Source: Candidatus Micrarchaeota archaeon (GTDB taxonomy: Archaea > Micrarchaeota > Micrarchaeia > Norongarragalinales > SBBD01). Taken from it: a DNA stretch of 64,000 nucleotides. Where the stretch lies: positions 32,001 to 96,000 of the forward strand of contig JAHJQN010000007.1 of the NCBI GenBank assembly GCA_018819225.1. The letters are read 5' to 3'. Positions 25,006 to 47,174 of the stretch are shown in pieces. A program made the position numbers and the translations under genes. Under the pieces are notes generated by a model. That model made no database searches and had not been told where the DNA came from. It worked only from the letters and a program-made list of their open reading frames with translations. Within the stretch, counting starts at the first letter, position 1, and every line of letters starts with the position of its first letter.

Positions 25006-25100
25006 GAGTGCATACCCTCGAAGAAGAACAGAAATAAAAGCGGGTGGGTAGCGCGCTTCCCCTGAAAACCTATTTAAACAACGGAGGAATAGGAACGGTC

Positions 25101-25628: not shown

Positions 25629-25629
25629 C

Positions 25630-26802: not shown

Positions 26803-26812
26803 AATCTAACCG

Positions 26813-27061: not shown

Positions 27062-27113
27062 AGGGGTTTTGGGACTTGCGAGCAATATAAAGGTTTTCGT
27101 GAGGGAAACCGCG

Positions 27114-30331: not shown

Positions 30332-30361
30332 TCACTTGACCCGATGGAAGTTATTAAGGCT

Positions 30362-31603
30362 TTATTTTTGGGTTTTGCGGAACGCTTGTTTCAAGGCTTC
30401 GACGCCAGGCAATTTCTTTCCTTGCAAATAACTGACCACGGCACCGCCCGCCAGAGATAAATGAGAAATCTTGGAAGAGGGGATACTGAATTTCTCCATG
30501 GCCGCTAGGGAGTGCCCTCCACCCATCAATGAAAACGCTTTCGAAGAGGACACGGCTTTCAGGATTTCGCGCGTGCCTTGCTCGAATAACGGATCCTCAA
30601 ATTTTCCAACAGGACCCTTGAAATAAATCGTTTTCGCCGTGGATAAAATAGATTGGTATCGGGCAATGGTCTTCGCCCCGATATCGTACGTGGGACCGTT
30701 GGCTTGAGCGAGGTCCGTCACGCGAAACTCCTTGCGCGCTCCGTTCTCCCCGATGGCAACGTCTTGCGGGAACTCGATTTTAGAAGAATGCTTTTCCATC
30801 AGGGACTGGAGTTCGGGGAGAAGCGCGTCGTACCCGGCATCGCGAATCCACTGGCGTTTGGTGGGACCGATGTCGTAACCCTTGGCGAGCAAACATAATT
30901 CCCCTAAAACGCCGGAGGTGAGTATTTTGTCAACGGCTTTAGAAGAACATGCGAACTGGAGGAGAGTGAAGACGTCGTCGGGCTTGGCACCACCTAACAC
31001 GTAAACGTTGGGGTGTTCAGCAGTCTCCAACGCCTTGGATAGTCCAGCGAGTTCCCGTTCCATCACCCGGCCTGCAGCGGATGGAAGAAGGAACGCGGGA
31101 CCGACGAGCGAGGCCTGCATACGGTGAGAAGCCGAAAACGCATCGTTGACATAAAAATCGGCAATGGAACACAACCGCTTGACCATCAAGGCCTTCAAAA
31201 ACTGGTCTTCTCGCGGCACCTTCTCCGTTTCCTCCGAGTAAAACCGCGTGTTCTCCAACAGAACGATATCCCCGTCATTCATTTGACGAATCTCGTTCAA
31301 CACCGTATTTGAGAATAAGCCGTCCAGGAACCGAACCGGCCTGTTGACGTGTTTTTCGAGGTAAGAGGCATGGGTTTTCAAGGAAATAAAGTCGGTTGAG
31401 AATGGCCGGCCTTGATGCGCCAACACCACCACGCGGGCACCCTTCTTGGAAAGTTCTTTAAGCGTTATGGCGTGTTCGGCGAATCGCTTGGAGTCCTGCA
31501 AACCGGTTTTCGCATCAAACGGTGCGTTAATGTCCACTCGGACCAACGTCGTTTTTCCTTTGAAGTTGAAATCGTCCAGAGTAAAAAATTGCTTTTTTTC
31601 CAT
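30362..31603 (-). CDS. pgk: Phosphoglycerate kinase
   Basis: VRVDIN, AHQGRP, LLENTRF, NDAF.ASHR, GGAK, GPVG.FE, GGGH, GGA. Confidence 0.97.
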   Translation of the reverse strand: MEKKQFFTLDDFNFKGKTTLVRVDINAPFDAKTGLQDSKRFAEHAITLKELSKKGARVVVLAHQGRPFSTDFISLKTHASYLEKHVNRPVRFLDGLFSNTVLNEIRQMNDGDIVLLENTRFYSEETEKVPREDQFLKALMVKRLCSIADFYVNDAFSASHRMQASLVGPAFLLPSAAGRVMERELAGLSKALETAEHPNVYVLGGAKPDDVFTLLQFACSSKAVDKILTSGVLGELCLLAKGYDIGPTKRQWIRDAGYDALLPELQSLMEKHSSKIEFPQDVAIGENGARKEFRVTDLAQANGPTYDIGAKTIARYQSILSTAKTIYFKGPVGKFEDPLFEQGTREILKAVSSSKAFSLMGGGHSLAAMEKFSIPSSKISHLSLAGGAVVSYLQGKKLPGVEALKQAFRKTQK

Positions 31604-31733
31604 CACAAACACCTCGGGTATGGCCGACGAATGCGATTGGAATGGCGCGCTTGCGTGGTCCGTTCCATTCCGCTAACCGGATGCGCCCGTCCGCGTCGAA
31701 AAACGCGTTCACGGGAAGAGAGGTTTAATGCAT

Positions 31734-32375
31734 TCAAGACGTATCCACCTCGTACGGATGGGAAGCCAGGCGCCGGATTTCTTTCGCCCGCTCCTTTCCG
31801 ATTCCTTCCGCGGATTGCAGTGTTTTTTCATCCGCCGTAAAAATACGTTGAATGGTGCCCAGTTTTCTTAAAAGCGATTTCGCGTTATGCGGGCCAATCG
31901 TAGGAATGGATTCGATCACGAATTGCTGCTGTTCGGAAACGGAAAAGGATTTCTTTTCGTAACGAAGCGCCAGCTCTTTTTTCCCGTTCGTTTTTTGAAG
32001 CGCGAGCACGTGAATGAATTCCGCGAGCTTTTCTTCAGAATCAAAATGAAAAATCGGAATGCGGAAATCCGTTGCTAACGCGATCTCCGCTCCCAAAAGT
32101 GCGCGGGGTTGCAGGCGACCGTATTTTGCGCCCACGATGGCCATAATAGGAGACTCGAATTGAGCGGCAAGATCTTTCGCCTGAAAAAAGAGGCGGCCGT
32201 CGATAATACTGGATTCGAAATCCGCCGCGGTCTTTCGCTCGAGGGCGACTTGGTCACTGATAATATAGTCGCCGATCTCCAGGCGCGTCGACTTCAAGCG
32301 AATGCCGAGTGAAAAGAGCTTTCGTGCCGTAGGGCTCTTGAGTTCGCGATCATCCATTAATATTTCCAGGTCCAT
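31734..32375 (-). CDS. Stand-alone ERCC4/XPF endonuclease + (HhH)2
   Basis: DDRE, GDY, ERKT..DF..SIIDGRL..Q, IPTIGP, EGIG; start moved to ATG 32375. Confidence 0.93.
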   Translation of the reverse strand: MDLEILMDDRELKSPTARKLFSLGIRLKSTRLEIGDYIISDQVALERKTAADFESSIIDGRLFFQAKDLAAQFESPIMAIVGAKYGRLQPRALLGAEIALATDFRIPIFHFDSEEKLAEFIHVLALQKTNGKKELALRYEKKSFSVSEQQQFVIESIPTIGPHNAKSLLRKLGTIQRIFTADEKTLQSAEGIGKERAKEIRRLASHPYEVDTS

Positions 32376-32419
32376 CCCAAAGAGCAACAAGGGGCAGGCT
32401 AAAAAAACGTGCGGTCGGG

Positions 32420-33175
32420 TCAAAGCCATTCCTGGAAAGTGATCGAGAGTTTTTCGATTTCCTGAAGAGTCAAGGAACGCACGCGTCGGGACGCCAACGG
32501 AAGTCGAGCGATACGCGTTTTCGCATCCGATGGAGAGGGGAAAGACAAGGACCGGCGGGAATGCCACAACGCATTTTTTACGGACTGGTTTTTATGCTGG
32601 AATAATAGTTGAACGAGCTGGGGATCGAGATGCGCCTTCGGGTTCTTTACGAGGTGGACGAATGCGGAATCCACGCGCGGAACGGGCCGGAAGGCGGTTC
32701 GGGGCACAATTCCCCATATCTCGACATCCGAAAGGCTTTGGGCCATCACGGATAGTCGCGCGTACTGAGGGGTGTCGGGGGAAGCGATCATGCGTAAAGC
32801 GAACTCCTTTTGAAGGCAGAGCAGAGCATCTTGAAACGTCGAGTTTAGTATGCGGAAAAGCAAGGGAGATGAGAGGTGGTATGGAAGGAAGCCGACAATG
32901 ACGGGAGCGTCCAAGGGGTGTATCCGGGCGTCCCCCATAATGACGTTTACGTTCTTCACGTCGCGCAGCCCGTTCGCGAGTTCGCGGGCCAAGCGCTCAT
33001 CCACTTCCAGAGCCGTTACCTCTTTAGCGTGTTCGGCGAGATAGCGCGTAATGACTCCCGTGCCCGCACCAATTTCGAGAACGCGTTTATCGGAAAAGTC
33101 GGCCAGATCTAAATACTCTTGAACGAACGAGATGTCGCGAAGGAAGACCTGGGAAAGGCGTTTTAATTGGCGCAT
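32420..33175 (-). CDS. ksgA: 16S rRNA adenine dimethyltransferase
   Basis: LSQVFL, VLEIGAGTG, LPYHLSS, QKEFA.R, Y.RLSV, F.PVP.VDS. Confidence 0.93.
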   Translation of the reverse strand: MRQLKRLSQVFLRDISFVQEYLDLADFSDKRVLEIGAGTGVITRYLAEHAKEVTALEVDERLARELANGLRDVKNVNVIMGDARIHPLDAPVIVGFLPYHLSSPLLFRILNSTFQDALLCLQKEFALRMIASPDTPQYARLSVMAQSLSDVEIWGIVPRTAFRPVPRVDSAFVHLVKNPKAHLDPQLVQLLFQHKNQSVKNALWHSRRSLSFPSPSDAKTRIARLPLASRRVRSLTLQEIEKLSITFQEWL

Positions 33176-33237
33176 TAAAAATCAGTAGAGCACGTGGTGG
33201 AAAGAATATATTAAACGAAAGGGGCATACCTCGGGAT

Positions 33238-33993
33238 ATGGCAAGGAAACGGTTGCGGCCCGTAAACCCAAATTACGAAAGGATTGGCGGGCTATCGCCC
33301 AACGACCCAATATTTCAAGAAATAAAAAAAACACTACCTCCGCATCTGAAAAAAGCATCGGAGTGGGCGTGGTTTACGTCGGCTCATCACATAAAATGGT
33401 TGGTTCTAAACAAGTCCTTCCGGGAGGGTATAACGCCTCAATCAAGAGTGTTAGAGTTGGGTGCCGGAACCGGCCGATTGGGGGATTGGCTTTTGAAAAA
33501 AACGGCGTTACGGCCCGAGGGATATGTTGCAGTGGACCAAATATATGGCGAGCGACCGGAAGTGTTTATGAAAGCACGCGTATGGAAACAAGCCAAGAGA
33601 GGAAAAATACGGTTATTAAAAGGAAATATTTGGAAACCCGGCCCGATTCATAGGGCGTTAACGGGTGAGACATTCGACCATATATTGATTCCAGAAGGGC
33701 TAATGGAGCCCGGATGGGAACGGCCTCCAGTAGAATTAGAAGAACCGAGAAAAGCCGGGCGGGTTTTCGCTCGTATCCTCGTTAAAAAACTAAAACAAGG
33801 AGGAACGCTGCGATTTTCACACGCCCAACCGATATTCAACGAACGGGCCTCTCGGCAAGTGCGCGAACGCAACCCCTTCAAGACGGGGTTTGAAGCGGGA
33901 TTAAAGCACGAAATGGATAGGGGCCATGCGGAACTCGTGGAGAGAACGATTGGCGGATGGGGGGTTAGTGGCGTCATCATCCGACGAACATAA
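33238..33993 (+). CDS. Class I SAM-dependent methyltransferase
   Basis: RVLELGAGTG, YVAVD, FDHI, LKQGG. Confidence 0.8.
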   Translation: MARKRLRPVNPNYERIGGLSPNDPIFQEIKKTLPPHLKKASEWAWFTSAHHIKWLVLNKSFREGITPQSRVLELGAGTGRLGDWLLKKTALRPEGYVAVDQIYGERPEVFMKARVWKQAKRGKIRLLKGNIWKPGPIHRALTGETFDHILIPEGLMEPGWERPPVELEEPRKAGRVFARILVKKLKQGGTLRFSHAQPIFNERASRQVRERNPFKTGFEAGLKHEMDRGHAELVERTIGGWGVSGVIIRRT

Positions 33994-34000
33994 GCGAGCC

Positions 34001-35113
34001 CTACAACAGACTCAGAAGGCGTGCGAACTCCTCAGCGGGCATGAGATTGAGGGGTAGTACGTGCCAGACGTGCAGGTACGCGCCGAAAAGAAAGGGAACC
34101 AACGGGTATTTTACGAGTTTGTTCGACCAGATATCTTCAAATGCGATGAGCAACGCGAATGGAAACGCGGGAAGTAAATACCGGGCGACATCGTTATGGG
34201 AAAGAAATAAGGCCGGCAAATAGAGAATCAACGCGAATAGCACGAGATCGAACCGCCGTTGCTGATAGAGCCGTGCGATTCCTGCTCCATAAAGCAAGTA
34301 GAGCAGCATCCAATATTCTCCGACCGCAGCACCCCCATAACCAATAACCGCTTGAAACGGAAGCCATTGAAGAACAAAGCTGTTGACGGACGCGTAAACG
34401 AAGAAGTCGCCGTACACGAAGTGATAGTAGAGAAAGTGAAGGAAGAGTGCGAGTGGAATGAGCAGGTAAGGAAGCGCAGACCGCCATTGAACGCGGCGCT
34501 TCCATAAAAAGTAAAGGGCGTAAAACGCGAAAAGCGTGACGCCAAAGACGCGCGTGGTTGCCGCCAGAGCACCGAATGCTGCAGACAGCCAGTACTGATT
34601 TCTTTTAAAGAAATAAAAGGAAGCTAAAACCAAGAAAATGAAGGGGGCCTCGGTGGCGCCGACGCTGTGGTAAATGAGCCAGCGAACCGGAAAAAACACG
34701 AAGATCACGGAAAGAAACAAGGGATGTTTCGTGTACTTGAATTCCTTGACGAGGAAGTAGAAAGTGATTACGGAAAGAACAGCGAAGAAGAGCGTGGCGA
34801 GAAGCATCGCATCGAACGGAAACAACACGAAAGAGAATAGCCGTATGAACGCGGGGTAGAACACGAGATGCGCGGAATAGTAGTAGGGGGGGAGGGACCC
34901 GAATTCTAATAGCGGCGTAGACTCGTAGAGGGTTTGAGAAACGACTACGTAGAGCGGGCCGTCCCAATAACGGTATAGCACGTCCATGGAGGTAATGGAA
35001 ATCGAGGAGCTCAAGAAAGAGGTTTCGTTTAACCAAAACGGGAGGTAAACGAGGAGACTCGAAAGGATCATGAGTAGCGCGAGAAACAACGCGTTACGGT
35101 GATCAACATGCAT
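34001..35113 (-). CDS. GT-C glycosyltransferase (PIG-V/mannosyltransferase-like)
   Basis: YWDGPLY, FYP, TEAPF, TTR..G, ARY; multi-TM. Confidence 0.8.
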   Translation of the reverse strand: MHVDHRNALFLALLMILSSLLVYLPFWLNETSFLSSSISITSMDVLYRYWDGPLYVVVSQTLYESTPLLEFGSLPPYYYSAHLVFYPAFIRLFSFVLFPFDAMLLATLFFAVLSVITFYFLVKEFKYTKHPLFLSVIFVFFPVRWLIYHSVGATEAPFIFLVLASFYFFKRNQYWLSAAFGALAATTRVFGVTLFAFYALYFLWKRRVQWRSALPYLLIPLALFLHFLYYHFVYGDFFVYASVNSFVLQWLPFQAVIGYGGAAVGEYWMLLYLLYGAGIARLYQQRRFDLVLFALILYLPALFLSHNDVARYLLPAFPFALLIAFEDIWSNKLVKYPLVPFLFGAYLHVWHVLPLNLMPAEEFARLLSLL

Positions 35114-35197
35114 ATGAAAAAAAATATACCAGGGGCATAATAAAGGATAGGGAAAGCGCGCAAGGAACAACCGGAACCATTTAGGGATATGGAAAAA

Positions 35198-37246
35198 CTA
35201 AAGATATCGGGGGGTTGAAGTCAAACGCACGCGTTTTCCCTTCAAAATGGCGGTTAATTGAGCCGAGCGCAATCGTTGGGAGGCATTCGAAAGAGAATAT
35301 TCCGCGGTGAAGGAGCGTTCGACGAACGGGATGCACCATTGAAGCTGCATGCCGAGCACCGTATCGTCCATGGCACTCGGTGAGGGGACGCACGAGACAA
35401 CGGAAGGCGCAAAGTCTTCAATCATTAACGCGTGAAGCGGCTCGCGGGTTTTAAGATAAAGTGTCACGCGGGAATCTCGAACGGTTTTCGTAAAGTGAAT
35501 AGGGGGTTGGGGGAAACGATGGAGAGCGATGGCAAGCAATAGCAAGGGAATGAGTAAGAAATAGTGCCAAGAAAAGGAAAGAGCCAACAGACCCGAGACC
35601 CGCGAAGGAACGGAAGAGGGGTATGGAGAAGACGAGGGACGGGGAAGCACGCGGAACCAAAACGAATGGTTTGAATACTGGAGTTTCCAGTAACCGGGTT
35701 CGGAAAAGTTGAATGAACGAGATTCGGAGAGAAGAACGCGATACGGACGGCCAGACGGACTGGAAATATGAATCGGGGATTTGGGAGGAACGCCGTCATC
35801 CAGAAGAGTGATTGGGTATACCCCTAACGGAATAGAAGCCGGCATGAGAAAAATAACGAGGGGGACGCGGGCGTATTGGAGGGGAATGCTGGAGGGAGCC
35901 GCAGAGGGGAAAAAAGAGGGGGAGGGGAGAATGGTAGGAGTAGGAGAATTGACAACGGGAATTATCGGAGATGAGGAATAGGTGGAAGTTGAACTGGAAG
36001 AAGGGGGAATGGAGGGGGGAGGAGTTGGAGAAGGAATAGGAAGTTGTAGAAGAATGGGGAGGGAGTGATTCAGAAAGGAATTGTTTTCAGAAAAAGCGAA
36101 GACCGTGCAATTGAGAGCGAACGAAACGTTTTCGAGATTGAGGAAGAACGAGGCATTTGAATGCGAAGGACATGCAACAGAGGTATTGACACCCGAATGA
36201 TTAGTGCAGGAGAGCTGAAGGGAAAACGTATCGTCCACGAAACCAATGTTTTCAAGGGACGCGGAATAATCGAAAAATAAGCCGTCGAGTATAGGGTGCT
36301 TGGAAACATTGAGAATACGGGGATTCCCATGAAGAAAAAGAAAGGGAACCGCGGAGTCATTGAGTCTAGCGGATAAATGAGCGGAAACCCACGAGTCCGG
36401 TGGCGAAAAGTCGTAGTAATTAGAATAGTTTCCGGAACGCGTTTCAATCAATAGGTGATACGCCGCCGTTAATTGCGAGGTGGAAGCAACGGCGTCTGGA
36501 ATGGATAGGAAATAATGGGATTGGTAGTAGGCCCATGCACTCAAATAGTTTTGAAAATAGGTTGGAGAAAGCAAACCGAAGGTATCGGAAAGATTGATAA
36601 AGGAATGGTTCGGTTGAGAGGTATTGAGAGAGTAGTTGATGAGAGTGAGGGAATGAGAGGAGTCGTTGCAGGAGGAATGATTTACTGAAGCGGTACAAGA
36701 GGAATTGAGGGCATTGAGTTGAATGGAGAAATCGAACGATAGTAATTCAGAAAGATTGGAATAGTTAGTGGAAACAAAAGGACGGTAACGGTAACACCAA
36801 TCCTTCAGATAGTAATTCCCACAGTTCGGATTAAAATAATCGCATTCGTCACACCAAGAAAAATCACCGGGACCGGTAAACCCGGCTCGCTCGCATAGAT
36901 CCTGGCCGTAATAGTCCGTACAACCGTCCTCGATCACCAACGCAAGCCCGCCGGAAGCCGAATACAAGGGAAAGGAGGCATTAGAAATGAGATACGAGGC
37001 GTTCTGGGAAAGGGAGGTATTGAGAAGAAAAGGAGAGAGAAGGGACACTTCGCCGTGGGTAAGAAGAGATAGGTTAGAGGCGGGTATTTCGATTGAAGCG
37101 TTCGTTTGAATAAGGAATAGGTTGAAAGAAAGCGCGGGAACCCGCGAGAAATTCAGAAGCGAAACGTCAAGCGCAAAAGGAGAAGGGAAAAAAATGGTTA
37201 GTGACAGCACAACGCAAACAACGACACCGCGCATGGGGGAAGGCAC
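35198..37246 (-). CDS. Surface glycoprotein, Ser/Pro-rich, many N-x-S/T sequons, one TM near C-terminus
   Basis: Signal peptide, Cys-rich patch, S/P linker, TM helix, then a short cytoplasmic domain. Confidence 0.7.
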   Translation of the reverse strand: MPSPMRGVVVCVVLSLTIFFPSPFALDVSLLNFSRVPALSFNLFLIQTNASIEIPASNLSLLTHGEVSLLSPFLLNTSLSQNASYLISNASFPLYSASGGLALVIEDGCTDYYGQDLCERAGFTGPGDFSWCDECDYFNPNCGNYYLKDWCYRYRPFVSTNYSNLSELLSFDFSIQLNALNSSCTASVNHSSCNDSSHSLTLINYSLNTSQPNHSFINLSDTFGLLSPTYFQNYLSAWAYYQSHYFLSIPDAVASTSQLTAAYHLLIETRSGNYSNYYDFSPPDSWVSAHLSARLNDSAVPFLFLHGNPRILNVSKHPILDGLFFDYSASLENIGFVDDTFSLQLSCTNHSGVNTSVACPSHSNASFFLNLENVSFALNCTVFAFSENNSFLNHSLPILLQLPIPSPTPPPSIPPSSSSTSTYSSSPIIPVVNSPTPTILPSPSFFPSAAPSSIPLQYARVPLVIFLMPASIPLGVYPITLLDDGVPPKSPIHISSPSGRPYRVLLSESRSFNFSEPGYWKLQYSNHSFWFRVLPRPSSSPYPSSVPSRVSGLLALSFSWHYFLLIPLLLLAIALHRFPQPPIHFTKTVRDSRVTLYLKTREPLHALMIEDFAPSVVSCVPSPSAMDDTVLGMQLQWCIPFVERSFTAEYSLSNASQRLRSAQLTAILKGKRVRLTSTPRYL

Positions 37247-37547
37247 CTTTTACAAGATGCCTCCAACCGTTTGTTTGAATAATTCCCTTAGGAATAAGGA
37301 ATGGCAGGTTAAAAAAACAAGGGGTTATGTCCGCTAATGAACCTGAATCTGATTGGGGTTTTATGTTTCTGTTGATGCAACCGAAAATTGCGTTATTGCG
37401 CGGAGTGTTCCTTTTCGCGCCAACTCTTTGGCCGCAGTGGAGAATTCCATTCACCCTACTAGTTATTGCAGGACTCGTTCAATTAGTGAGCGCTTGAACC
37501 ATAGGGAATAGGATAAAAGGATAACCGCCAATACTTTAGAGCGCGAT

Positions 37548-37654
37548 GGGCTCGTAGTCGAACGGTAAGACGCTGCCTTCGCAAGGCAGAGACTCCGGGT
37601 TCGATGCACAAAAAAGGCTTGAAAAAAGCCTGTGCGAAAATCCCGGCGAGTCCA
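37548..37654 (+). tRNA. tRNA-Ala(CGC) with 35-nt non-canonical intron at 59/60 (37606-37640)
   Basis: GGGCTCG/CGAGTCC with G3-U70; anticodon CGC at 37580-37582; BHB CCGGG/CCCGG, TTCG/CGAA, CACA/TGTG with ATG and AAT bulges; splicing restores TTCGATT. Confidence 0.93.
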
Positions 37655-37694
37655 TTTTTTTATTAAGTGAGAGTACAACATAAAAACCCCCAAA

Positions 37695-38403
37695 CGCATC
37701 ACGTGATGCATTAGGGTTTGGTTTGAATGTACTATCTCCTCCAGAGGACCTAGATCTGGACGATCACGCTGCTGCCTTGCTTCGAGATAACAACTGGCTC
37801 TTGCGGCATCCTTGCCAACAACGAATCAATTTCCTTATACGACAAGCCACTTACATCAAGCCTCATAACAACCACCTACACGCATCGAAAGCGGATGAAA
37901 GGATATATGGGGTGTTGAGCACGTGATTTCCAGTAGTGCAACACATGATGCATAAATATTTTAGGTGGTTTAGCGTTTGATAATATAGATAAATAATTCG
38001 TTAAGATGACTGTGAAAAATCGGCGTTGTTGTTGTTTGTTTATTGTAAAAGTAGAATTATTATATTATTATAATGCGTCACGTGAAGCGTATGAATTTAT
38101 TATGAGTTAACATTCGTGCAATACCTGAGACAATGGGTGTTTTCTAGTGCTTCAGGTGATGCACCAATATTAAATTCAGTGCTTCACCTGTTGCGTGTAT
38201 GTTAAATCAAATGCTTCACGTGCTGCAGTTTGTTTTCATAATCCTTCAATTTACCCGATACATAGAGATGGTTGCCCGATCATTATGGTGTTAGGATAGC
38301 TAAATAGTTCAGATAGGATTATGGGTTTGTTTATGTATGTATTTGGTTTTTGTTTCTCCAAGTCACCTAAACAACTATTTACTTTAGTGCGTCACGTGTG
38401 GCA
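37695..38403. repeat. Array of ~9 parS-like 16-bp palindromes (TGC-N2-CACGTG-N2-GCA) in an AT-rich intergenic region; candidate origin/centromere-like locus
   Basis: Copies start at 37695, 37915, 37937, 38074, 38117 (degenerate), 38148, 38180, 38212 and 38388; AT-rich core 37953-38073. The repeat is directly visible; its function is inferred. Confidence 0.8.
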
Positions 38404-40059
38404 CTAGAAGTCCAATATATTCTTCTGATTCCCCACAATCAACTCCTCTTGCTCTTCGACTCCAATCTGCTCTTTATTCCCTATACTTTTCAACTCCTTT
38501 CTCAACTCATGCAATGTACTTCTCATCTTCTTCTCCCGTTGTTTCGAAATCCAGAAGAACGCCTCATCCTTACTTTTTCGCGTGATCAATACTATGGTGT
38601 TTCCTTCCCGAACCCTACCCGTTCTACCACGACGTTGTATCGCCCGAATTTCTGACGGCACGGCCTCAAAAAAGACCACGAGATCAACGGACGGAACATC
38701 AATTCCTTCCTCCGCCACCGACGTTGCCACCAACACATTGAACGATTTCGATTTAAACTCTTGCAACACCTGCGCCTGTTTTTTTTGGTTCATTCCCTCC
38801 TTACTTTTCCCAACAAACGCCTTTGCTTTCACGCCCGCAAATTGATTCAATTCCTCCACAATTTTCGTAACTGTATTGCGGTAGTGCGCGAACACGATAA
38901 CACTCTTTCCTTCCTGCACCGCATCCGATACCACTCCTTTCAACCTCCGGAACTTCGGGTGTTCCACTCCTTGCTTCCTCAATTCCTCGCACTTGATTCC
39001 AATTAATTTCCACCTAAAGTCCTGAAGCAATCCCTTCACTGCCTTGCTTTTCTGTTTCCTCTTCCCCATTTCCTGCATGAACCCCCACAATGCGTGAATA
39101 CCTTCTGTTTCCAACAAATCCAGCGCGTGGCTCACATTCATGGCTCTCGCTTGAACACTCAGCGCCCGATAACCTTCTGGTCGCATCGTAGACAGCTCCA
39201 ACGCCTTCCTCCGCGCATCCAACAACGCTCGCTTGTGCCGCTTTAAATCCGTGCTGTCCACGACCTCCAATTCCAACAACTCCGCTAACGCATCCTTCAA
39301 CAACTCCTCCAACACGCTCTTAATATCCATGAACGCCTTCGGCAACTCCACAAAAATCCAATCCAGTTTGACGGGCTTCGCGTATCCCTGCACATCCTTA
39401 TCGTTCTCATCCCGCACTTCAATATTCGCGATATTCAAATTCGTACAAATCTCTTGAATGACTTCTCGTTTGGAAGACGGGCTCGCGGTCAACCCCAAAA
39501 TAAACGCATGCTGTTTCGCTGCCTCTTTCGCTAGAAACGCGTACGAGTGCTCTTTCACCGCCCGATGCACTTCGTCAAACACAACGAGTCTGAACGCCTC
39601 CATTGAAACCCGTCCCGCCAACAAATCATATTCAACTGTTTGCGGTGTCGCACACACGATTTCCAAGATCGGGTTCGCCCACAACCTCTCTCTCAATGCC
39701 GGTTCCGTCTCCCCACTCAACACCATCACTTCCGTTGCCTCTTCCTTTCCCCAGTTAATCCGCGTTCCTTCAAACTCCAGCCATTCACGCAATCGCTGGC
39801 TTTGCTGAAGAGCCAGTGGCTTCGTAGGCGTCAAAAACAATATCTTTTTCTTTTTCCCTAAGCTCGAACGCTCCTCTTTCAAAAACTTGGCAATCACAAA
39901 CGCGGCCACATACGTTTTCCCTAACGCCGTCGGCATGATCACTAACGAGTTTCCATTCCTCAACACGCGCTCCGCCATCTCCACCTGGTATCCTCTCAAC
40001 TCTACTTGACCCGGCTTCAACGCCAGTTGCTTCAAAAAATCCGCGTATTTTTCCTTCAT
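38404..40059 (-). CDS. hef: Hef/FANCM-type SF2 helicase lacking the nuclease domain
   Basis: RGYQ, MPTALGKT, PTKPL, DEVH, GLTASP, HPK, ATSVAEEGIDVP, QRRGRTGR; ends QKNILDF (PIP-like). Confidence 0.93.
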   Translation of the reverse strand: MKEKYADFLKQLALKPGQVELRGYQVEMAERVLRNGNSLVIMPTALGKTYVAAFVIAKFLKEERSSLGKKKKILFLTPTKPLALQQSQRLREWLEFEGTRINWGKEEATEVMVLSGETEPALRERLWANPILEIVCATPQTVEYDLLAGRVSMEAFRLVVFDEVHRAVKEHSYAFLAKEAAKQHAFILGLTASPSSKREVIQEICTNLNIANIEVRDENDKDVQGYAKPVKLDWIFVELPKAFMDIKSVLEELLKDALAELLELEVVDSTDLKRHKRALLDARRKALELSTMRPEGYRALSVQARAMNVSHALDLLETEGIHALWGFMQEMGKRKQKSKAVKGLLQDFRWKLIGIKCEELRKQGVEHPKFRRLKGVVSDAVQEGKSVIVFAHYRNTVTKIVEELNQFAGVKAKAFVGKSKEGMNQKKQAQVLQEFKSKSFNVLVATSVAEEGIDVPSVDLVVFFEAVPSEIRAIQRRGRTGRVREGNTIVLITRKSKDEAFFWISKQREKKMRSTLHELRKELKSIGNKEQIGVEEQEELIVGNQKNILDF

Positions 40060-40191
40060 GCTCTTTACTCCTTTTTTCTCGTTAATAGGGCTTTCTCCAC
40101 CCCCACTTCCTCAAAACACAAGCATTATAAACCCCGCTTTCGCTCAATCTAATCGTTTCTTCGGTTTTTATGTGATTTAGGGGGGTTTTTC

Positions 40192-40392
40192 ATACCGGAT
40201 TTGCCTTTAGCGGCCATAGAGCGCTTAATTCGTCGAGCGGGAGCCGAACGCGTTTCTGAAGATGCGTCGGAAGCCCTTGCCGACATTCTTGAAGAATACG
40301 CTTTGGATGTCTCTCAAAAAGCCGTTCTTCTCGCAAAACACGCTGGCCGAAAAACCATTACTGCAGAAGATATCCGTTTAGCCGGTCGGTAA
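40192..40392 (+). CDS. Archaeal histone (HMf type); probable ATA start at 40192
   Basis: (M)PDLPLAAIERLIRRAGAERVS..A..AKHAGRKTITAEDI. Confidence 0.95.
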   Translation: MPDLPLAAIERLIRRAGAERVSEDASEALADILEEYALDVSQKAVLLAKHAGRKTITAEDIRLAGR

Positions 40393-40398
40393 ACTAGC

Positions 40399-41172
40399 TT
40401 ATTCTTCCCGCAGGTCGCCGTAGATAATCCGGTGCACCCAATCCATGACACCGAATTTCTCCTTATAGTCCACGCCCATAATTTCCGCCGCAATTTTCTT
40501 GAAACCAATGGCCGCCGGACTCTTGGGGAACGCGGTTACCACCGGCTGCGCCATCAGCGCGGCAGTCGGAACGGCGGGATCCTCGGGAATCTTGCGAATC
40601 GGGTGATCTCCGATAATATCCCGAATCTCTTCCTCGTTCGGCTCGCCTGCATACCGTCCCACCCGGTTCAAAACAACGGCCGCAACCTCTACTCCGATGC
40701 TTTCCGCCATTTGAATCGTTTTATATGACGCGGACAGTGCCGGCAGTTCCGGATTGGTTACCACGAACATGTGGTCCGCGCTTCTCGCCGCCGAAATGAA
40801 TTCGGCTCCCAAACCCGGCGCCGAATCAATAATGAGCGTGGTTTTGCGCTTCTTCAACTGCTTCAATACTCTCGTAAAATCATCTTGCGTAATTCCTCCC
40901 AACGAATTCAGATTGATGTTCGCGGGGATGACTTTCAACCCGCTTTCATGCTCGTACGTCGCATCCTCCACACTCGACTTCCCCCGAATCACGTCATTCA
41001 ATGTATTCGTTTCGAACGGAACCGAGAAATACAGTGAAATATCCGGCACCGGCAAATTCCCGTCGACTATCGTCACGTCGCCTCCAAATTGCGATAAAGC
41101 GGTTCCCAGGTTAATGACGGTTTGCGTCTTTCCCACGCCTCCTTTACCCGAACTGACGATGAATGAAGCCAT
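40399..41172 (-). CDS. minD: MinD/ParA-family ATPase (archaeal MinD-like)
   Basis: Deviant Walker A GKGGVGKT, IIDSAPG, VVTNPE, VLNR, IPED, P.SPAA; amphipathic C-terminus. Confidence 0.9.
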   Translation of the reverse strand: MASFIVSSGKGGVGKTQTVINLGTALSQFGGDVTIVDGNLPVPDISLYFSVPFETNTLNDVIRGKSSVEDATYEHESGLKVIPANINLNSLGGITQDDFTRVLKQLKKRKTTLIIDSAPGLGAEFISAARSADHMFVVTNPELPALSASYKTIQMAESIGVEVAAVVLNRVGRYAGEPNEEEIRDIIGDHPIRKIPEDPAVPTAALMAQPVVTAFPKSPAAIGFKKIAAEIMGVDYKEKFGVMDWVHRIIYGDLREE

Positions 41173-41173
41173 G

Positions 41174-41428
41174 TTATTCGTCCCATCCCCGTTTCCAACG
41201 CATGATTTTAATCCGGTCCACTAGATTATTTTTTGGGATGCGCCGGTATATCCGGCTACGTCTTCCCACGCCAAAAATGCCCGCGAACGGTTTCTTTTTT
41301 ATTCTCTTGGAAGCCCGTCGCTTGATATTCTTTCTCGTCTTCTTTCCTCGTTTGACGACGCGCTTCACGCGGTGCGAAACACGTCTCGCAATTTGCCTCA
41401 CGGTTTTTTGGCTTCGCGTTCTTGCCAT
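41174..41428 (-). CDS. Small, very Arg/Lys-rich protein immediately upstream of minD
   Basis: 84 aa, stop 1 bp before the minD ATG, TTTATATT box upstream. Confidence 0.6.
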   Translation of the reverse strand: MARTRSQKTVRQIARRVSHRVKRVVKRGKKTRKNIKRRASKRIKKKPFAGIFGVGRRSRIYRRIPKNNLVDRIKIMRWKRGWDE

Positions 41429-41554
41429 GAATGCGTTTCACTATGCCCCTTTCGATTACCTCTTATCACTTCCCTCCAATATAAAGCTAACGCTGCCTCG
41501 TCATTAAAAAACAATAAAAGATAAAGAAACAAAGGGGAAGGCGTTACCCGTTCG

Positions 41555-43297
41555 TTACCTTCCCCTGCTCTTCATTTTAATTTTCTTCTTGCGCTTTCCG
41601 TGGAAGAACCACGCGCTCGCCACCGCAACCGCTCCCACGGCCGCGAGCATGAACGCGAAACTAAAGCTTTTCTTCCCGTTCTTGATTTCCGCGATTTCCG
41701 CTCGCGCTTGTTGGATCGCATTCACGGCTTCCTGCGGGTTGCTGGCAGCCATCGAACGCGTTCGCGCGGCGAGTTGCTCGTACGGCGTCTTCTCTTCCAT
41801 GTTTCCTAGTCCCTGAATTTCTTGTTCGAGCTCGTTTTGTACTGTTGAAGCCAACACGCTCCATCCGCCTGCTCCTTGTTGCATGTACTTCTTCGGCGTG
41901 GTCACCATCAACGGGCTTCCGCCGCTCGATGGTTTTCGGCAATTGAATTCCGCGATATCGAAGTTGTTCGTCTCATCCGATTCTTCGATTATCTGGGTGG
42001 TGTCGGCGGTTGCATTGACATAATACGTTCCTACTCCCGGACACCGGAACGCGTACGTATTCAATTCCGCGCCGACTAAGGGTTCTAGTGGGGGGATCTC
42101 CCAGAAATAAAATTCCAACTGTTGAGTTCCCTGGCCTAATGCCGACATGGTGAAACTCGTATCAGAAGCACCTTCCCCGTTATTTCGGGTGTTAATGCTA
42201 ATTGTTATGGTTTCTCCCACGTACGGATTGCTTTTACTAATACCGACATACGCCACCAAGTCGGGAAGCAGTTCCTCGTAAGAATAGACTCCCGTCCAAG
42301 CATACGCTTCTTGACCAAACGCGCCTGGGAATACGTTGCCTGTTGATACGTTTACGCCTTCCAGAATTGTCCACTTATATTCCTCGTTAACGACAACTCC
42401 GACGTACTGGCCTTGCGGGTTGTATACTTGATACATCGCACTTTCCCCGGATCCATTTCCTCCGGATCCGCTAATATCCACCAAAACCACTTGATAGTCG
42501 TTATCTGCAAATACTTGGTCTTGTATGAACAACTGGTACCAGCCATCTCCATAATGCGTATGATTTTGTCCCGAAGAGCACTCTACGCTTCCGTAAACGA
42601 AGTTGTTCGTTTCGTCGGATTCATTGACTTCAGTCCATGCATCTACCGTTACATTCACTCCGTACGTTCCCTCTTCGAGACAGGTAAAGTTATATGAGTT
42701 GTTTTGCCCTGCTCCCGGATTCAATGACGGGACGCTAAACAAGTGGGGGTGCCCATTTTGTTCAACGGAAAGCGTGTGGCTGGCTCCCGAAGCCCCTTCT
42801 CCGAGATTGCGGGTTAAAACATATGCGATAACCGTTTCTCCCACTATTGGGTTTGATTTACTAAACCCTAAATCCGGCACCAAGTCCGCCAGAGGTGCTC
42901 CTTGCGGGCCCGTGCAATTCAACGCAACTTGTCGATAATTATTTTGTTCTTGTGATTCTACCACTTCATTGAAGATATCCGCTTTAGCGCCAATCCAGAC
43001 GATTCCGGTTTGGTTACACGTATACGTTGAAGTATTCGTATTGTTTTGCCCGCTTATCAGTCCGTTGATTCGGAAATCTTGAATGGTCCCAAAATTCGAA
43101 TAGAGCCGCGTCGTGGATTGGCTCGCCCACGTGGTCCCGTTGTTTTCCGTTGTTACCCAGATGGTAACGGGTTCTCCAACCGGCGCCTCGTTCATGCTTA
43201 GACGCATATCCGAGACCACTAAATCCGGTTCCGCGCTGACGGATGCCGTTAACATCGTCATAATTAGGGTTCCTACAAACAGGCTCAACAAACGCAT
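41555..43297 (-). CDS. Surface protein with three CARDB domains and C-terminal TM anchor
   Basis: Three [PA]DLV...N.G...V.ES.E.NN units; signal peptide; TM + basic tail; AGGTGA SD. Confidence 0.88.
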   Translation of the reverse strand: MRLLSLFVGTLIMTMLTASVSAEPDLVVSDMRLSMNEAPVGEPVTIWVTTENNGTTWASQSTTRLYSNFGTIQDFRINGLISGQNNTNTSTYTCNQTGIVWIGAKADIFNEVVESQEQNNYRQVALNCTGPQGAPLADLVPDLGFSKSNPIVGETVIAYVLTRNLGEGASGASHTLSVEQNGHPHLFSVPSLNPGAGQNNSYNFTCLEEGTYGVNVTVDAWTEVNESDETNNFVYGSVECSSGQNHTHYGDGWYQLFIQDQVFADNDYQVVLVDISGSGGNGSGESAMYQVYNPQGQYVGVVVNEEYKWTILEGVNVSTGNVFPGAFGQEAYAWTGVYSYEELLPDLVAYVGISKSNPYVGETITISINTRNNGEGASDTSFTMSALGQGTQQLEFYFWEIPPLEPLVGAELNTYAFRCPGVGTYYVNATADTTQIIEESDETNNFDIAEFNCRKPSSGGSPLMVTTPKKYMQQGAGGWSVLASTVQNELEQEIQGLGNMEEKTPYEQLAARTRSMAASNPQEAVNAIQQARAEIAEIKNGKKSFSFAFMLAAVGAVAVASAWFFHGKRKKKIKMKSRGR

Positions 43298-43409
43298 GCG
43301 ATCACCTTTCTTGTGAAACTGGGTTAATTCAATGCTTTTTAATCCTATTTAAACTTATTTAATTTCGTTTCATTCGATTTAATAAGTTATTTTTCCTCGA
43401 TGTTTTCAC

Positions 43410-43482
43410 GGGCCTGTAGTCGAGTGGTTAAGACGTCGCTTTTACACAGCGAAGATCCGGAGTTCGATTCTCCGCGGGCCCA
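43410..43482 (+). tRNA. tRNA-Val(TAC), no intron
   Basis: GGGCCTG/CGGGCCC-A; TCGCT-TTTACAC-AGCGA; CGGAG-TTCGATT-CTCCG. Confidence 0.96.
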
Positions 43483-43558
43483 TTAACGTTGCATTATTTT
43501 TCGTTGAAGTCAATTCGTCGAAAAGAATTCAATGCACGCCTTCGATGTTTGATGGGGT

Positions 43559-46500
43559 TTACGCTTGCTCGTTCTCCGTTGCCTGCGTTCCATCCTCTGG
43601 GCTTCCCTCTTCTTGCGCTTCCCGTGACTCATCCGTTTTATTAGACGAATGCATCGTCGAGGAATAGTAGACGGCGCCTGCAATGATGGCGAGTGCTGCA
43701 AATCCAGCCAACCATACGTTGAAAGACGCCTTATTTTGACGCGCTTTCGCGAGCAAGACCGTCACTTTCTCTTTCGCTTTCATCCACAACGTCTTCGCTT
43801 CTTCTTTTTGCCCCGATTCCTCCAAGTCCTTTGCCTGCGTAATCATTTGGTGCGCTTCCTGCGTTTCAATATCCTCCGATGGAAGCTCAAGCAATGCGGC
43901 CTCAACTTCTTCGTTTGTCAAAGGCACTTCCACGAAAACAATGGGTGTTTCCGGAGTGGGTGACGGCTTTAGCGTTGCGGTAACTTCGGGTGTTGGCGTC
44001 CAGTACGCGCCTCCTCCGTTACCATTTCCTCCTCCGGGATTAGGAGGTTGTGTTACGATCGGGGTCGGGGACGCGCTAGGTGTTGGGGATGCCGTTGGAC
44101 TCGGCGTAGGCGACGGAATAACGCACTCGCCAACGCAACAGCGATCGGAATCCCCTGACGGCACCCAATTCCCGTTGCATTGCTCGTTCGAGCCGCACTC
44201 ATTTCCTCCTTGCTCCTCGCAAGTCGGCAATGGGACGCTCGTAATGATGAACGTTCCTCCCCCGTCACTACCGAAACCCAATACGTTGGACTTACCGAGA
44301 ACCACTATTCCTGCTTGCAGAACGTTTCCGTCGCGCGAAACCGAGTACACTCCGGGTGAGAGGTCGGCGACGAAGTGTTTGATTTGTCCGATGCCGCCTG
44401 GAAGCGTGTATGCCGCTGAAGAGTATAACCTTTCCTGCTTTCCGAACAACGCTGCGTACCGCGTGTTCTGGCTCGTGACCTGCACTCCCGCGAACTCGGT
44501 CGCGTCAATGGGTTCGACGCTCGAAGGAGCAGCAGCCATATCCGTTGGTTCGAGGACGGATAGAAATACTTCTTCCTCGTTGCTTTGCTCTGGCTCCACC
44601 TCAATTCTCCACAAGCCAGGTATTCCATCCTCCCATGCCAGTTCCCCCCACCCACTAACACTGGTCGTGAGGTTCATCGCATAATTTGTTTCACTTTCTC
44701 GGAAGTAATAGTCGAAGGACTCGTCCGAGTCGAATCGCACGCGGACGATTTCCGTTCCCTCGGGGTAGCTCGACGATCCCAGCGCGTGCTTGAATGTTAC
44801 GCTTCCGGTTCCCACGCTTTCAACTCTACGCACTTGCGTGTTTTGTACGGCTTGATCGAGGTAACTAAACAGGATCGTGTCGCCGGCCTGAACGTTTTGC
44901 GTGGAGTTGACTTGAATGGTCAGCATTCCTCCGGAGGCAGGCGCCATCAAACGCATTGCGGTCTCGGGTCGGCCGTCATATCCTCCGACGCGGAGTAATC
45001 TGCGCTGCAGGGGGAAGATAACATGCGTATACAACCTACTGGCTCCGACATCCCAGTACGTCCCTGACGCGCTCGTCGACCATTCGCCTGGCGTTCCTCC
45101 TCGGGCTCCGGGATGCGCGGGCGTTCCTCCATTGAATGTTCCATCGATCAATTCCGGGGATTCCAGGGAACGCGAGTGGAGAACAAAACTCTTTTTGAAC
45201 GACGGGTCCGCGACCTTTACCCGGTCAAGAATTGCGAGGTAGGCGTCTCCCAGCATGACGAACTGCCTAGTTGAGTAATTGACTGCCCATCCCAGAGGCC
45301 ATCCTCCTGGTCCGTCCACGGAATACGGCCAGTTGGGGTAGCTAAACGTCGTATTCATAAACACGTACCCGTAGTCCCCGCGGCTATCCGAGAATCGTTC
45401 GACGCCTCCATTCCAACACTTCATGTTCAAACGGTCTTCCAGAAACTGGTTTCCGCATCGGCGAGTCGACGGACTCGGCGGCACGTCGTAGTCGTGAAAC
45501 TGGATTCCTTCGCGAGCCATGTTGGTGTTTCCGCCGACGGGATACGCGGACTGCGGGTCAGCGATCAGCATGGTGTTGAAGGCGATACTCTTCGAATTGA
45601 AGAATTTGTTGTGCGGCGTGGACGTGTGTTCGTAAAAGCCGGCGGAAGTCGTCAATGCGTCCACTCCCCGGAATACCGCGAAGTGTCCGGTGTTCCAGCC
45701 GTGGTCGTGTCCTCCTGAGAACGGTCCGCCGAAAACGGGGACGAGGAGCGAGTCCGCAGTCATTGCTCCGAATTGGAAGTCGGAGCGCAGAAAAGAAAAC
45801 TTGGAGGAATCCAAATCCGCATGCGTCAAATCGCCTAAATGGAGCGCGTGCTCCAGCGCCTGGTCCGGGTCCTCGCGAGAAAGCATCTTATCCAAAAATA
45901 CGATATAGCGCCATCCGTCGCTTTTGAACTTCTCGTACTGGCCGCCTTGTGCTTCAGGCATCAACGCCTTGTCAACAAACCATAACGCCCATCCTTGATT
46001 GAACGCCGTGCCGTACATGCCTGCCAGCATCACGTAATCCCGGAGAATGTATCCGAATGATTCCCCGTCCCCGGTCTGGTCCGAGGAGCGAAAGTCATCG
46101 CGCGCGGAATACACGGTCCACCGGGCCACGTTTCGGAAATGGTTGGGAGCCAAGTCGAAGAAATTCGTATTCAATGCAATGGAGTTGAATGCGAACGCCA
46201 AGTCCCCGTCCTGAAGCCCTGACCGGTGCAAGTACCCGCTATATCCCCCGTAGTTGATCGCATCAAGCACCCTCAAATCCTCCATCTTGTAATTGTACGA
46301 GTCAATGAGAAGGTTAACGAACGCCTGGTCCGTGTCTATCCCCGCATCTTCATACAACAGCAAGGACATCAACAATACGGGGTTGCATGCTTGTCCGCCG
46401 GTCGACCCGAAATGCGATCCGGGTTTGTCGCACTGCCCATTTCCCTCGTTATAAAAATCGTTTTCAGCACGCAGCCAAGCCGCATACTCTTCCAACAAAC

Positions 46501-46993: not shown

Positions 46994-47174
46994 ATTAAAC
47001 GCATGTGAACTGACTATATATATTTCTATTTATTTTCCTCCAATCGACTCGCGCGTTTTAGTTGAAGGGCGTTTCAGCTTCACTTACGCTCCAGTGATTT
47101 TAACCAACGCGCCTTTCCCCATTAGCAAGAAATCGGTTACAAACCATTTAATACCGCTCTTCAGTTCTTGTTTC

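What the first reader, a model, noticed from the sequence alone, without database searches (positions are those of the whole stretch)
33000..41500. Strand-composition inversion centred on the palindrome array, with non-canonical polarity for an origin
Seen (hand counts of single 60-nt lines, so only a sample): left of 37.7 kb the + strand is G>C in both + and - strand genes (line 22861 G19/C10; 28021 G18/C12; 34381 G19/C9). Right of 38.4 kb it is C>G in both (39241 G6/C23; 47281 G14/C24; 59401 G11/C23). The two minus-strand genes flanking the array have opposite coding-strand bias (Ser/Leu/Phe/Pro-rich vs Glu/Lys-rich). Known: skew flips mark replication origins or termini; with the usual G-rich leading strand, G>C to C>G marks a terminus. 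Inference: either an origin with inverted (C-rich leading strand) skew, which fits the AT-rich core and parS-like boxes, or a defined terminus with a new Ter/matS-like motif.
Basis: partly seen in the sequence, partly recalled or inferred. Interest (0 to 1): 0.75.

Follow-up and report, generated by a model that had tools for sequence, protein, structure and literature searches.

The report
Likely replication origin of Micrarchaeota
The strand-composition flip is real and falls exactly on a conserved AT-rich array of 16-bp palindromes in a family of tiny DPANN archaea, most likely their chromosome replication origin, with a C-rich leading strand as in haloarchaea.

Summary
Observation confirmed. 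In this 1.37-Mb Micrarchaeota MAG (window = contig C6:32001-96000), cumulative GC and AT skews both peak at window 37.7-38.4 kb. Third-codon-position skew flips there in genes of both strands (±30 kb: GC3 +0.10 to -0.21, p=6e-6; AT3 +0.26 to -0.11, p=8e-7).

The flip lies in a 739-bp non-coding stretch between tRNA-Ala(CGC) and a Hef-type helicase. It holds seven tGCwTCACGTGwTGCa palindromes, partly 32 bp apart, and a 121-bp core of 23% GC.

An AT-rich array downstream of Hef occurs in all nine family loci fetched (four genera) and in none of 20 loci from other families. GC3 flips there with the same polarity in two relatives (G005, G006); three one-sided contigs agree. This excludes misassembly, a recent inversion or gene content.

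Best reading (about 0.6): the family's origin, with non-ORB repeats, far from the single orc1/cdc6, and inverted GC skew as reported for haloarchaea. In G005 the opposite switch is broad and featureless, as at Thermococcales termini.

Main rival (about 0.2): a sequence-defined terminus. The rRNA, r-protein and rpoB loci of G005 lie on the G-rich strand. No ParB is encoded. Read coverage would decide, but the tool that might have given contig coverage was closed.

The parts
8000..37664 (+). Left arm: + strand G>C and A>T at third codon positions in genes of both strands (GC3 part starts at about window 8 kb; AT3 part extends beyond the window start)
37548..37664 (+). tRNA-Ala(CGC) with an intron in the T-loop; a tRNA flanks the array in 7 of the 9 family loci (the other 2 are cut by contig ends)
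   Evidence: Rfam tRNA 33.8 bits; missed by ARAGORN; tRNAs beside the arrays of relatives; the G005 copy was read by eye as tRNA-Ala(CGC) from the sequence
37665..38403 (.). 739-bp non-coding array region, GC 0.387, the most AT-rich of the 54 intergenic stretches of at least 450 nt in the genome; the skew switch falls here
37696..37709 (.). palindrome site 1, GCATCACGTGATGC (perfect)
37938..37951 (.). palindrome site 2, GCAACACATGATGC
37954..38074 (.). 121-bp AT-rich core (GC 0.23) between sites 2 and 3; candidate DNA unwinding element. The same ~140-bp AT-rich gap between two sites recurs in relatives (142-143 bp in G005 and G010)
38075..38088 (.). palindrome site 3, GCGTCACGTGAAGC
38149..38162 (.). 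palindrome site 4, GCTTCAGGTGATGC
38181..38194 (.). palindrome site 5, GCTTCACCTGTTGC, 32 bp after site 4
38213..38226 (.). palindrome site 6, GCTTCACGTGCTGC, 32 bp after site 5
38389..38402 (.). palindrome site 7, GCGTCACGTGTGGC, ending 2 nt before the helicase stop codon; a site at this position is found in 6 of the 9 family loci (not in G001, G004 or G007)
38404..40059 (-). Hef-type superfamily-2 helicase (DEAD, Helicase_C, helical bundle); its 3' end abuts the array in every family genome examined
   Evidence: Pfam; orthologues and their downstream regions
38404..64000 (+). Right arm: + strand C>G and T>A at third codon positions in genes of both strands; continues to the contig end (at least 103 kb)

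Best explanation
The array is the chromosomal replication origin of this Micrarchaeota family. Inferred mechanism: a sequence-specific protein binds the 16-bp palindromes. It may be the single Orc1/Cdc6 or an unidentified family-specific factor. Several sites sit 32 bp (three helical turns) apart, on one face of the helix. The adjoining ~120-140-bp AT-rich core melts and forks leave in both directions. Shown: the strand bearing the outgoing 5'-3' direction on each side is C-rich at third codon positions, and also T-rich in G000 and G001. If this is the origin, the leading strand is therefore C-rich, as reported for haloarchaea. The origin differs from textbook archaeal oriC in two ways: its repeats are not ORB elements, and it is not next to orc1/cdc6.
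For: (1) Architecture. It is the most AT-rich long intergenic region in both G000 and G005. It has 7 palindromes in 707 bp against ~0.1 expected, unique in the genome, and a 23%-GC core. It lies between two gene ends, so no promoter is needed there. (2) Conservation. An AT-rich array lies downstream of Hef in 9 of 9 family loci across 4 genera and in 0 of 20 loci of other families, with recurring spacings of 32, 52/84, ~142 and ~185 bp. A tRNA flanks it in 7 of 9. (3) The skew switch coincides with the array to within one gene in G000 and G005. It is two-sided in G006 and one-sided but consistent in G001, G010 and G003, always with the same polarity. (4) In G005, rebuilt whole, there are only two switches: this sharp one and a broad weak one at C2:90-120 kb. 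The broad one has no AT-rich repeat region, no cdc6 and no ORB cluster, and skew amplitude fades towards it. In Thermococcales the oriC peak is sharp and the terminus broad (PMC2958812). (5) Inverted GC skew at experimentally mapped origins is documented for four haloarchaea (PMC1868953). (6) AT3 in G000 and G001 has the usual origin polarity, T>A on the outgoing strand. (7) Several rearrangements between G000 and G005 are inversions that cross the array, as seen around replication landmarks. (8) In G005, G010 and G003 the gene blocks next to the array mostly point away from it.
Against: By the usual rule (G-rich leading strand) a cumulative GC-skew maximum is a terminus, and another DPANN archaeon (Forterrea) follows that rule with cdc6 at the predicted origin (PMC5905446). 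In G005 the rRNA operon, the L2 ribosomal-protein cluster and rpoB all have their sense strand on the G3-rich strand, which means head-on with replication if the leading strand is C-rich. The tRNA and Hef genes immediately flanking the array converge on it in G000 and G005. No canonical ORB core occurs in the array and orc1/cdc6 is never on the same contig. The binding protein is unknown. In G000 the G>C left arm lasts only ~35 kb, and in G006 the genes to the left point towards the array.
Confidence: 0.6

Rival explanations
1. The array is a sequence-defined replication terminus. A protein bound to the palindromes arrests forks arriving from both sides. The leading strand is then G-rich as usual, and initiation occurs in the broad trough region on the opposite side.
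For: The array sits at the cumulative GC3-skew maximum in G000, G005 and G006, which is the canonical terminus polarity. The rRNA, r-protein and rpoB loci of G005 would then be co-directional with forks. tRNA-Ala and Hef converge on the array, and Hef is a stalled-fork enzyme family. A fixed barrier would also give a sharp switch.
Against: No sequence-specific terminus is known in archaea (own knowledge). The sites are symmetric palindromes, not polar sites. The array has the AT-rich core and phased repeats typical of origins. The presumed origin region has no AT-rich repeat locus, no ORB cluster and no cdc6, and its switch is broad. xerA is elsewhere and no dif-like site was found. AT3 polarity in G000 and G001 is the opposite of a canonical terminus. 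There is no genome-wide gene-orientation bias that would make the three highly expressed loci weighty.
Confidence: 0.2
2. The palindromes are a centromere-like or chromosome-organising site (parS-like) bound by a segregation or nucleoid protein. They lie at or beside the true initiation site but are not themselves initiator sites.
For: The consensus TGCATCACGTGATGCA shares 12 of 16 positions with bacterial parS, TGTTTCACGTGAAACA. Bacterial parS sites cluster next to oriC (PMC7022226). A MinD/ParA-type ATPase with a very basic 84-aa partner lies 2 kb away. Single or paired copies of the motif also occur elsewhere, e.g. C1:209996/210086 and C7:74641, with more in genus g4.
Against: No ParB is encoded: there are only sub-threshold ParB_N hits to small proteins (135 aa with no other Pfam hit in G000; a 167-aa open frame in G010) and none in G001, G003, G005 or G006. 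The MinD-like gene is not syntenic with the array in G005, where its best match is 34% identical and 60 kb away. This reading does not by itself explain the skew switch, so it still needs an origin or terminus at the same spot.
Confidence: 0.1
3. A cluster of transcription-factor operators unrelated to replication; its coincidence with the skew switch is accidental.
For: CACGTG-core palindromes are typical operator-like sites. Dispersed copies lie in some intergenic, promoter-like regions.
Against: In G000 and G005 the array lies between two gene 3' ends. The coincidence with the switch recurs in several genomes. No regulator gene was found beside the dispersed copies.
Confidence: 0.05
4. An artefact: misassembly, a recent inversion breakpoint, or the composition of the two unusual flanking genes.
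For: The raw local skew (+0.34/-0.31) is inflated by a Ser/Pro/Leu-rich secreted protein and a membrane protein on one side and a Glu/Lys-rich helicase on the other. The G>C arm in G000 is short.
Against: The flip holds at third codon positions in both gene orientations over tens of kb. The same locus order and the same flip occur in independently assembled genomes.
Confidence: 0.02

Closest known systems
Archaeal oriC of the Orc1/Cdc6-ORB type (Pyrococcus oriC, Sulfolobus oriC1)
   Same: [quoted passage not shown]
   Different: The repeats lack the TTCC...GGAA ORB/mini-ORB core described in PMC1904270. There is no adjacent orc1/cdc6 in any of ten family genomes. GC-skew polarity is opposite to Pyrococcus.
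Haloarchaeal replication origins with inverted GC skew (Norais et al. 2007, PMC1868953)
   Same: If the array is the origin, the leading strand carries an excess of C, as reported for four haloarchaea, including the 48%-GC Haloquadratum.
   Different: Haloarchaeal origins are cdc6-adjacent with ORBs and G-strings and are usually multiple. This is a DPANN lineage with one cdc6 and, in G005, a single clean peak and trough.
Bacterial parS/ParB centromere
   Same: A 16-bp palindrome with a TCACGTGA core, 12 of 16 positions identical to TGTTTCACGTGAAACA, in several copies at a replication landmark.
   Different: No ParB gene. The sites are tightly phased in one 0.7-kb AT-rich locus rather than spread over the origin region.
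Bacterial fork traps (Tus-Ter of E. coli, RTP-Ter of B. subtilis)
   Same: Position at the cumulative GC-skew maximum; repeated protein-binding sites.
   Different: Ter sites are asymmetric and polar, spread over a large region or in opposed pairs, and not embedded in an AT-rich unwinding-type core (own knowledge). No homologue search for Tus or RTP was run.
Origins distant from orc1/cdc6 or captured from mobile elements (Sulfolobus oriC3/WhiP; own knowledge)
   Same: An origin not specified by an adjacent orc1/cdc6, with lineage-specific repeats; the position beside a tRNA gene is a typical integration site.
   Different: No initiator-like gene lies beside the array here, and no attachment-site duplicate of the tRNA was seen.

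Membership tests
Archaeal oriC (Orc1/Cdc6-ORB type) | [quoted passage not shown] | tested here: met
   739-bp non-coding stretch, 121-bp core of 23% GC, 7 repeats
Archaeal oriC (Orc1/Cdc6-ORB type) | Repeats carry the ORB/mini-ORB core (TTCC...GGAA, e.g. TTCCAGTGGAA; PMC1904270) | tested here: not met
   No TTCCNNNGGAA within 1 mismatch in the array; no intergenic ORB cluster anywhere in G000 or G005
Archaeal oriC (Orc1/Cdc6-ORB type) | orc1/cdc6 gene adjacent | tested here: not met
   The single orc1/cdc6 is at C2:58010-59077 in G000; it is on another contig than the array in all ten family genomes that have it
Archaeal oriC (Orc1/Cdc6-ORB type) | Sharp strand-composition switch at the site | tested here: met
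   Per-gene cumulative GC3 (and AT3 in G000) peaks inside the array in G000 and G005; G006 is two-sided
Archaeal oriC (Orc1/Cdc6-ORB type) | Initiator binding and initiation of replication at the site | not testable with these tools
Bacterial ParABS centromere | parS palindrome TGTTNCACGTGAAACA | tested here: inconclusive
   The consensus shares 12 of 16 positions; the differing positions are conserved as GC.w/w.GC across the family
Bacterial ParABS centromere | ParB (ParB_N plus HTH) encoded in the genome | tested here: not met
   Only sub-threshold ParB_N hits to small proteins (135 aa in G000, a 167-aa open frame in G010); none in G001, G003, G005, G006
Replication fork trap (Tus-Ter, RTP-Ter) | Location at the cumulative GC-skew maximum | tested here: met
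Replication fork trap (Tus-Ter, RTP-Ter) | Asymmetric, polar sites in opposed orientations | tested here: not met
   43 aligned family sites give a symmetric consensus t-GC-w-T-CACGTG-w-t-GC-a
Replication fork trap (Tus-Ter, RTP-Ter) | Terminator protein gene, or dif/Xer nearby | tested here: inconclusive
   xerA is at C2:97310-97792, not on C6; no conserved dif-like 11-6-11 site was found; Tus and RTP were not searched

The most novel reading that the evidence does not exclude
The array is the first sequence-defined replication terminus in Archaea. A conserved bank of symmetric palindromes would stop forks from both sides next to the fork-processing helicase Hef, while initiation is diffuse or cdc6-independent on the opposite side of the chromosome.
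Probability: 0.2. Interest if true: 0.85.

Novelty: new variant of a known kind. Interest (0 to 1): 0.62.

Why it matters
I found no description of a DPANN or Micrarchaeota replication origin in the searched library. These organisms are uncultured, so a sequence landmark is the only handle on their replication. Here one conserved, easily recognised locus marks the replichore boundary in a whole family. It can orient and check MAG assemblies and anchor growth-rate (peak-to-trough coverage) estimates. It also gives a defined 16-bp DNA ligand with which to fish out the binding protein. If it is the origin, then an archaeal lineage with a single Orc1/Cdc6 uses non-ORB, parS-like palindromes far from cdc6. 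It would also extend inverted GC skew beyond haloarchaea, which warns against reading skew polarity by the bacterial rule in archaeal MAGs. If it is a terminus, it would be a new kind of archaeal system.

Tried and rejected
(1) Skew polarity from another genome of the order that has cdc6. Sampling 20 x 20 kb of G016:C1 showed only sense-strand C3>G3 and no replichore signal.
(2) Gene-orientation bias as a marker of the leading strand. There was none among all genes (G000 455 vs 493; G005 466 vs 456), tRNAs (12 vs 12; 6 vs 9) or conserved genes.
(3) dif search by 11-6-11 inverted repeats conserved between G000 and G005. Only rRNA and tRNA pieces came up.
(4) Origin-like features at the cdc6 gene and at the G005 trough. 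These were only intron-bearing tRNAs and ordinary promoter regions.
(5) DNA search for the array in 40 relatives. It matched only the tRNA, because the array is too divergent for BLAST. A loose pattern search across the order was uninformative apart from an excess in genus g4.
(6) More distant Hef loci (48% identity Micrarchaeota MAGs and 20 loci of other families) have no array.
(7) A binder gene next to dispersed motif copies. Pfam found only PIN, prenyltransferases, Trm56 and the like.
(8) A ParB_N hit next to a TCACGTGA core at C1:70.3 kb. It is a 135-aa protein with a DGHHR motif, only a sub-threshold ParB_N hit and no other Pfam match, and the 'site' is inside the upstream coding region.
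(9) A run of small minus-strand genes at C2:110-121 kb is not the r-protein operon, since it has no G005 homologues.


Full report
WHAT THE WINDOW IS. The window is G000:C6:32001-96000 of a 1.37-Mb, 8-contig assembly (90% complete, 0.2% contamination). Relatives of its Hef-type helicase are MAGs titled Candidatus Micrarchaeota. An archaeal histone, a single orc1/cdc6 and intron-bearing tRNAs fit a DPANN archaeon.

- Cumulative GC and AT skew peak at window ~38 kb, both in the window and on the whole 173-kb contig.
- The two flanking minus-strand genes are compositional opposites: a secreted Ser/Leu/Pro/Phe-rich protein with many N-x-S/T sequons, and a Glu/Lys-rich helicase. I therefore used third codon positions referred to the + strand, split by gene strand.
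- Within 30 kb, GC3 is +0.064 and +0.118 on the left (+ and - genes) and -0.190 and -0.222 on the right. AT3 goes from +0.26 to -0.11 (p from 4e-3 to 8e-7).
- The per-gene cumulative curves peak inside the non-coding stretch itself.
- The right arm continues at least 103 kb to the contig end. The A>T left arm runs to the contig start, but the G>C left arm lasts only ~35 kb.

THE LOCUS.
- Between tRNA-Ala(CGC) (37548-37664, T-loop intron; found by Rfam, missed by ARAGORN) and the stop codon of the helicase (38404) lie 739 non-coding bases at 38.7% GC.
- They carry seven copies of a palindrome, GCnTCACGTGnnGC, at 37696, 37938, 38075, 38149, 38181, 38213 and 38389. Three of them are exactly 32 bp apart. 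A 121-bp core of 23% GC lies between sites 2 and 3.
- About 0.1 site is expected in such a stretch, and the rest of the window has only the chance number. No other cluster exists in the genome.
- It is the most AT-rich of all intergenic stretches of at least 450 nt.

CONSERVATION.
- In relative G005 (same family, different genus, 7 contigs) the same order is found: tRNA, read by eye as tRNA-Ala(CGC), then an AT-rich array of the same palindrome, then Hef on the minus strand (G005:C1:88.2-88.8 kb).
- I fetched the Hef locus from 30 genomes of the order. All nine loci of the window's family (four genera) have an AT-rich array of 2-7 sites just downstream of Hef. None of the 20 loci from other families does. 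A tenth family genome, G006, has it too.
- Aligning 43 sites gives the symmetric consensus t-GC-w-T-CACGTG-w-t-GC-a. Spacings recur across genera: 32, 52/84, ~142 and ~185 bp.
- A tRNA flanks the array in the seven loci not cut by a contig end.

THE SKEW SWITCH TRAVELS WITH THE ARRAY.
- I rebuilt G005 whole. On its contig C1, GC3 is about +0.08 for 0-88 kb and about -0.07 for 89-168 kb (p=3e-8). The per-gene cumulative maximum lies between the genes that bracket the array.
- In G006, GC3 is +0.09 to +0.25 for 40 kb on one side and -0.16 to -0.28 for 60 kb on the other.
- G001 (another genus), G010 and G003 have one long arm each, with the expected sign.
- The polarity is always the same: the strand running 5'-3' away from the array is C-rich.
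- Synteny between G000:C6 and G005:C1 holds for about 60 kb on each side, with several inversions that cross the array.
- These results exclude misassembly, a recent inversion breakpoint and a gene-content artefact. They identify the array as a replication landmark of the family.

ORIGIN OR TERMINUS? By the bacterial rule a cumulative GC-skew maximum is a terminus. I favour an origin, for five reasons.
- The architecture is that of an origin: an AT-rich core, flanking phased repeats, unique in the genome, non-coding, and lying between two gene ends.
- G005 has only two switches. The one at the array is gene-sharp. The other, at C2:90-120 kb, is broad, skew amplitude fades towards it, and it has no AT-rich repeat locus, no ORB-like cluster and no cdc6. 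In Thermococcales the oriC peak is sharp and the termination region broad (PMC2958812).
- Inverted GC skew, with an excess of C on the leading strand, is documented at experimentally mapped origins of haloarchaea, including a 48%-GC species (PMC1868953). The polarity is therefore not a strong argument in archaea.
- In G000 and G001 the AT3 skew has the usual origin polarity.
- In G005, G010 and G003 most genes next to the array point away from it.

EVIDENCE AGAINST AN ORIGIN.
- In G005 the rRNA operon (C5:31.2-37.0 kb), the L2 ribosomal-protein cluster (C2:198 kb) and rpoB (C5:64.5 kb) all have their sense strand on the G3-rich strand. They would be head-on to forks if the leading strand is C-rich.
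- However, neither genome shows orientation bias among all genes, tRNAs or conserved genes, so three loci weigh little.
- A Diapherotrites DPANN genome follows the canonical rule, with cdc6 at the predicted origin (PMC5905446).
- tRNA-Ala and Hef converge on the array in G000 and G005.
- My estimate is about 0.6 for an origin and 0.2 for a sequence-defined terminus. The rest goes to a centromere-like role at the same spot or an unrelated operator cluster.

WHAT IT IS NOT.
- It is not a canonical ORB origin. The TTCC...GGAA core (PMC1904270) is absent from the array. No intergenic ORB cluster exists in either genome. The single orc1/cdc6 is on another contig than the array in all ten family genomes that have it. 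Its upstream region in G000 holds only a tRNA.
- It is not a ParABS centromere, although the consensus shares 12 of 16 positions with parS, TGTTTCACGTGAAACA. No ParB is encoded in six family genomes.
- The nearby MinD/ParA-like gene is not syntenic with the array in G005.
- xerA lies at C2:97.3 kb, about 17 kb from a broad AT3/GC3 switch on that contig. I found no dif site.

OPEN POINTS.
- The binder is unknown. Single or paired copies of the palindrome occur elsewhere: C1:209996/210086 upstream of an 861-aa surface protein, a perfect 20-bp palindrome at C7:74641, and more copies in genus g4. This recalls initiators that double as regulators, but no regulator gene sits beside them.
- G000 has two skew regimes that I cannot explain, and an extra GC3-only sign change ~35 kb left of the array. 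That change lies inside a 30-kb segment absent from G005.
- Read coverage would settle the polarity.

EARLIER NOTES OF THIS SCAN. Other first-reader notes had already flagged the array, the tRNA intron and the MinD neighbourhood on this same DNA. Two follow-up reports on stretches that overlap or touch this one exist but were withheld. No note on other DNA was used.

Noticed in passing
window 37548-37664; L028:10218-10310 (G005): tRNA-Ala(CGC) carries a non-canonical intron in the T-loop and is missed by ARAGORN. The copy beside the G005 array, read by eye as tRNA-Ala(CGC), seems to carry its insertion in the D-arm region instead, so intron position may have moved within one family.
   Followed up: partly
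whole genome G000 (contigs C1-C8); window 1-8000: There are two strand-composition regimes. GC3 and AT3 have opposite signs on C1, C2, C4, C7 and C6:0-30 kb, and the same sign on C5, C8 and C6:40-173 kb. A GC3-only sign change lies at C6:30-40 kb (window ~1-8 kb), inside a ~30-kb segment (C6:19.7-49.7 kb) with almost no homologues in G005. Unexplained.
   Followed up: partly
window 31734-32567 (-) and 38404-40059 (-): Hef appears split. The helicase is beside the array. By eye, an ERCC4/XPF-like nuclease with a C-terminal helix-hairpin-helix is a separate ORF 6 kb away on the other side of the array. In G005 its homologue lies on the helicase side, so an inversion crossed the array. The nuclease was not checked with Pfam.
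   Followed up: no
G000:C1:209996-210099 (L017:4996-5099) and G000:C7:74638-74657: Extra copies of the array palindrome lie outside the array. Two are 90 bp apart, ~0.5 kb upstream of an 861-aa secreted, Thr/Ser/Asn-rich surface protein. One is a perfect 20-bp palindrome, GATGCATCACGTGATGCATC, between two + strand genes. The binder may therefore also act as a regulator.
   Followed up: partly
window 38404-40059: The Hef helicase has an extreme third-position bias: GC3 skew -0.62 on the + strand, i.e. G3 far above C3 in the sense strand, and -0.39 in G005. This is much stronger than its neighbours.
   Followed up: no
window 40201-41428: A histone gene converges on a MinD/ParA-type ATPase that is preceded, 1 nt apart, by an 84-aa Arg/Lys-rich ORF. 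The ATPase's best G005 match is only 34% identical and 60 kb from the array, so the pair is not part of the conserved locus.
   Followed up: partly
G000:C1:70324-70731 (L044:1498-1905): A 135-aa ORF with a DGHHR motif, a sub-threshold ParB_N hit (E 2e-3) and no other Pfam match, directly after a TrpB-like gene whose last codons contain TCACGTGA.
   Followed up: partly
window 35198-37246 (-): A 682-aa secreted protein with a signal peptide, dozens of N-x-S/T sequons and a Pro/Ser-rich linker has no Pfam match. It sits next to a 389-aa multi-pass membrane protein that also has no Pfam match. This may be a surface glycoprotein with a partner.
   Followed up: no
G005:C5:122910-123459: A tandem 183-bp repeat lies inside a ~2000-aa minus-strand ORF. 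It was picked up only because each unit resembles a mini-ORB at 2 mismatches; it is coding, not an origin.
   Followed up: no
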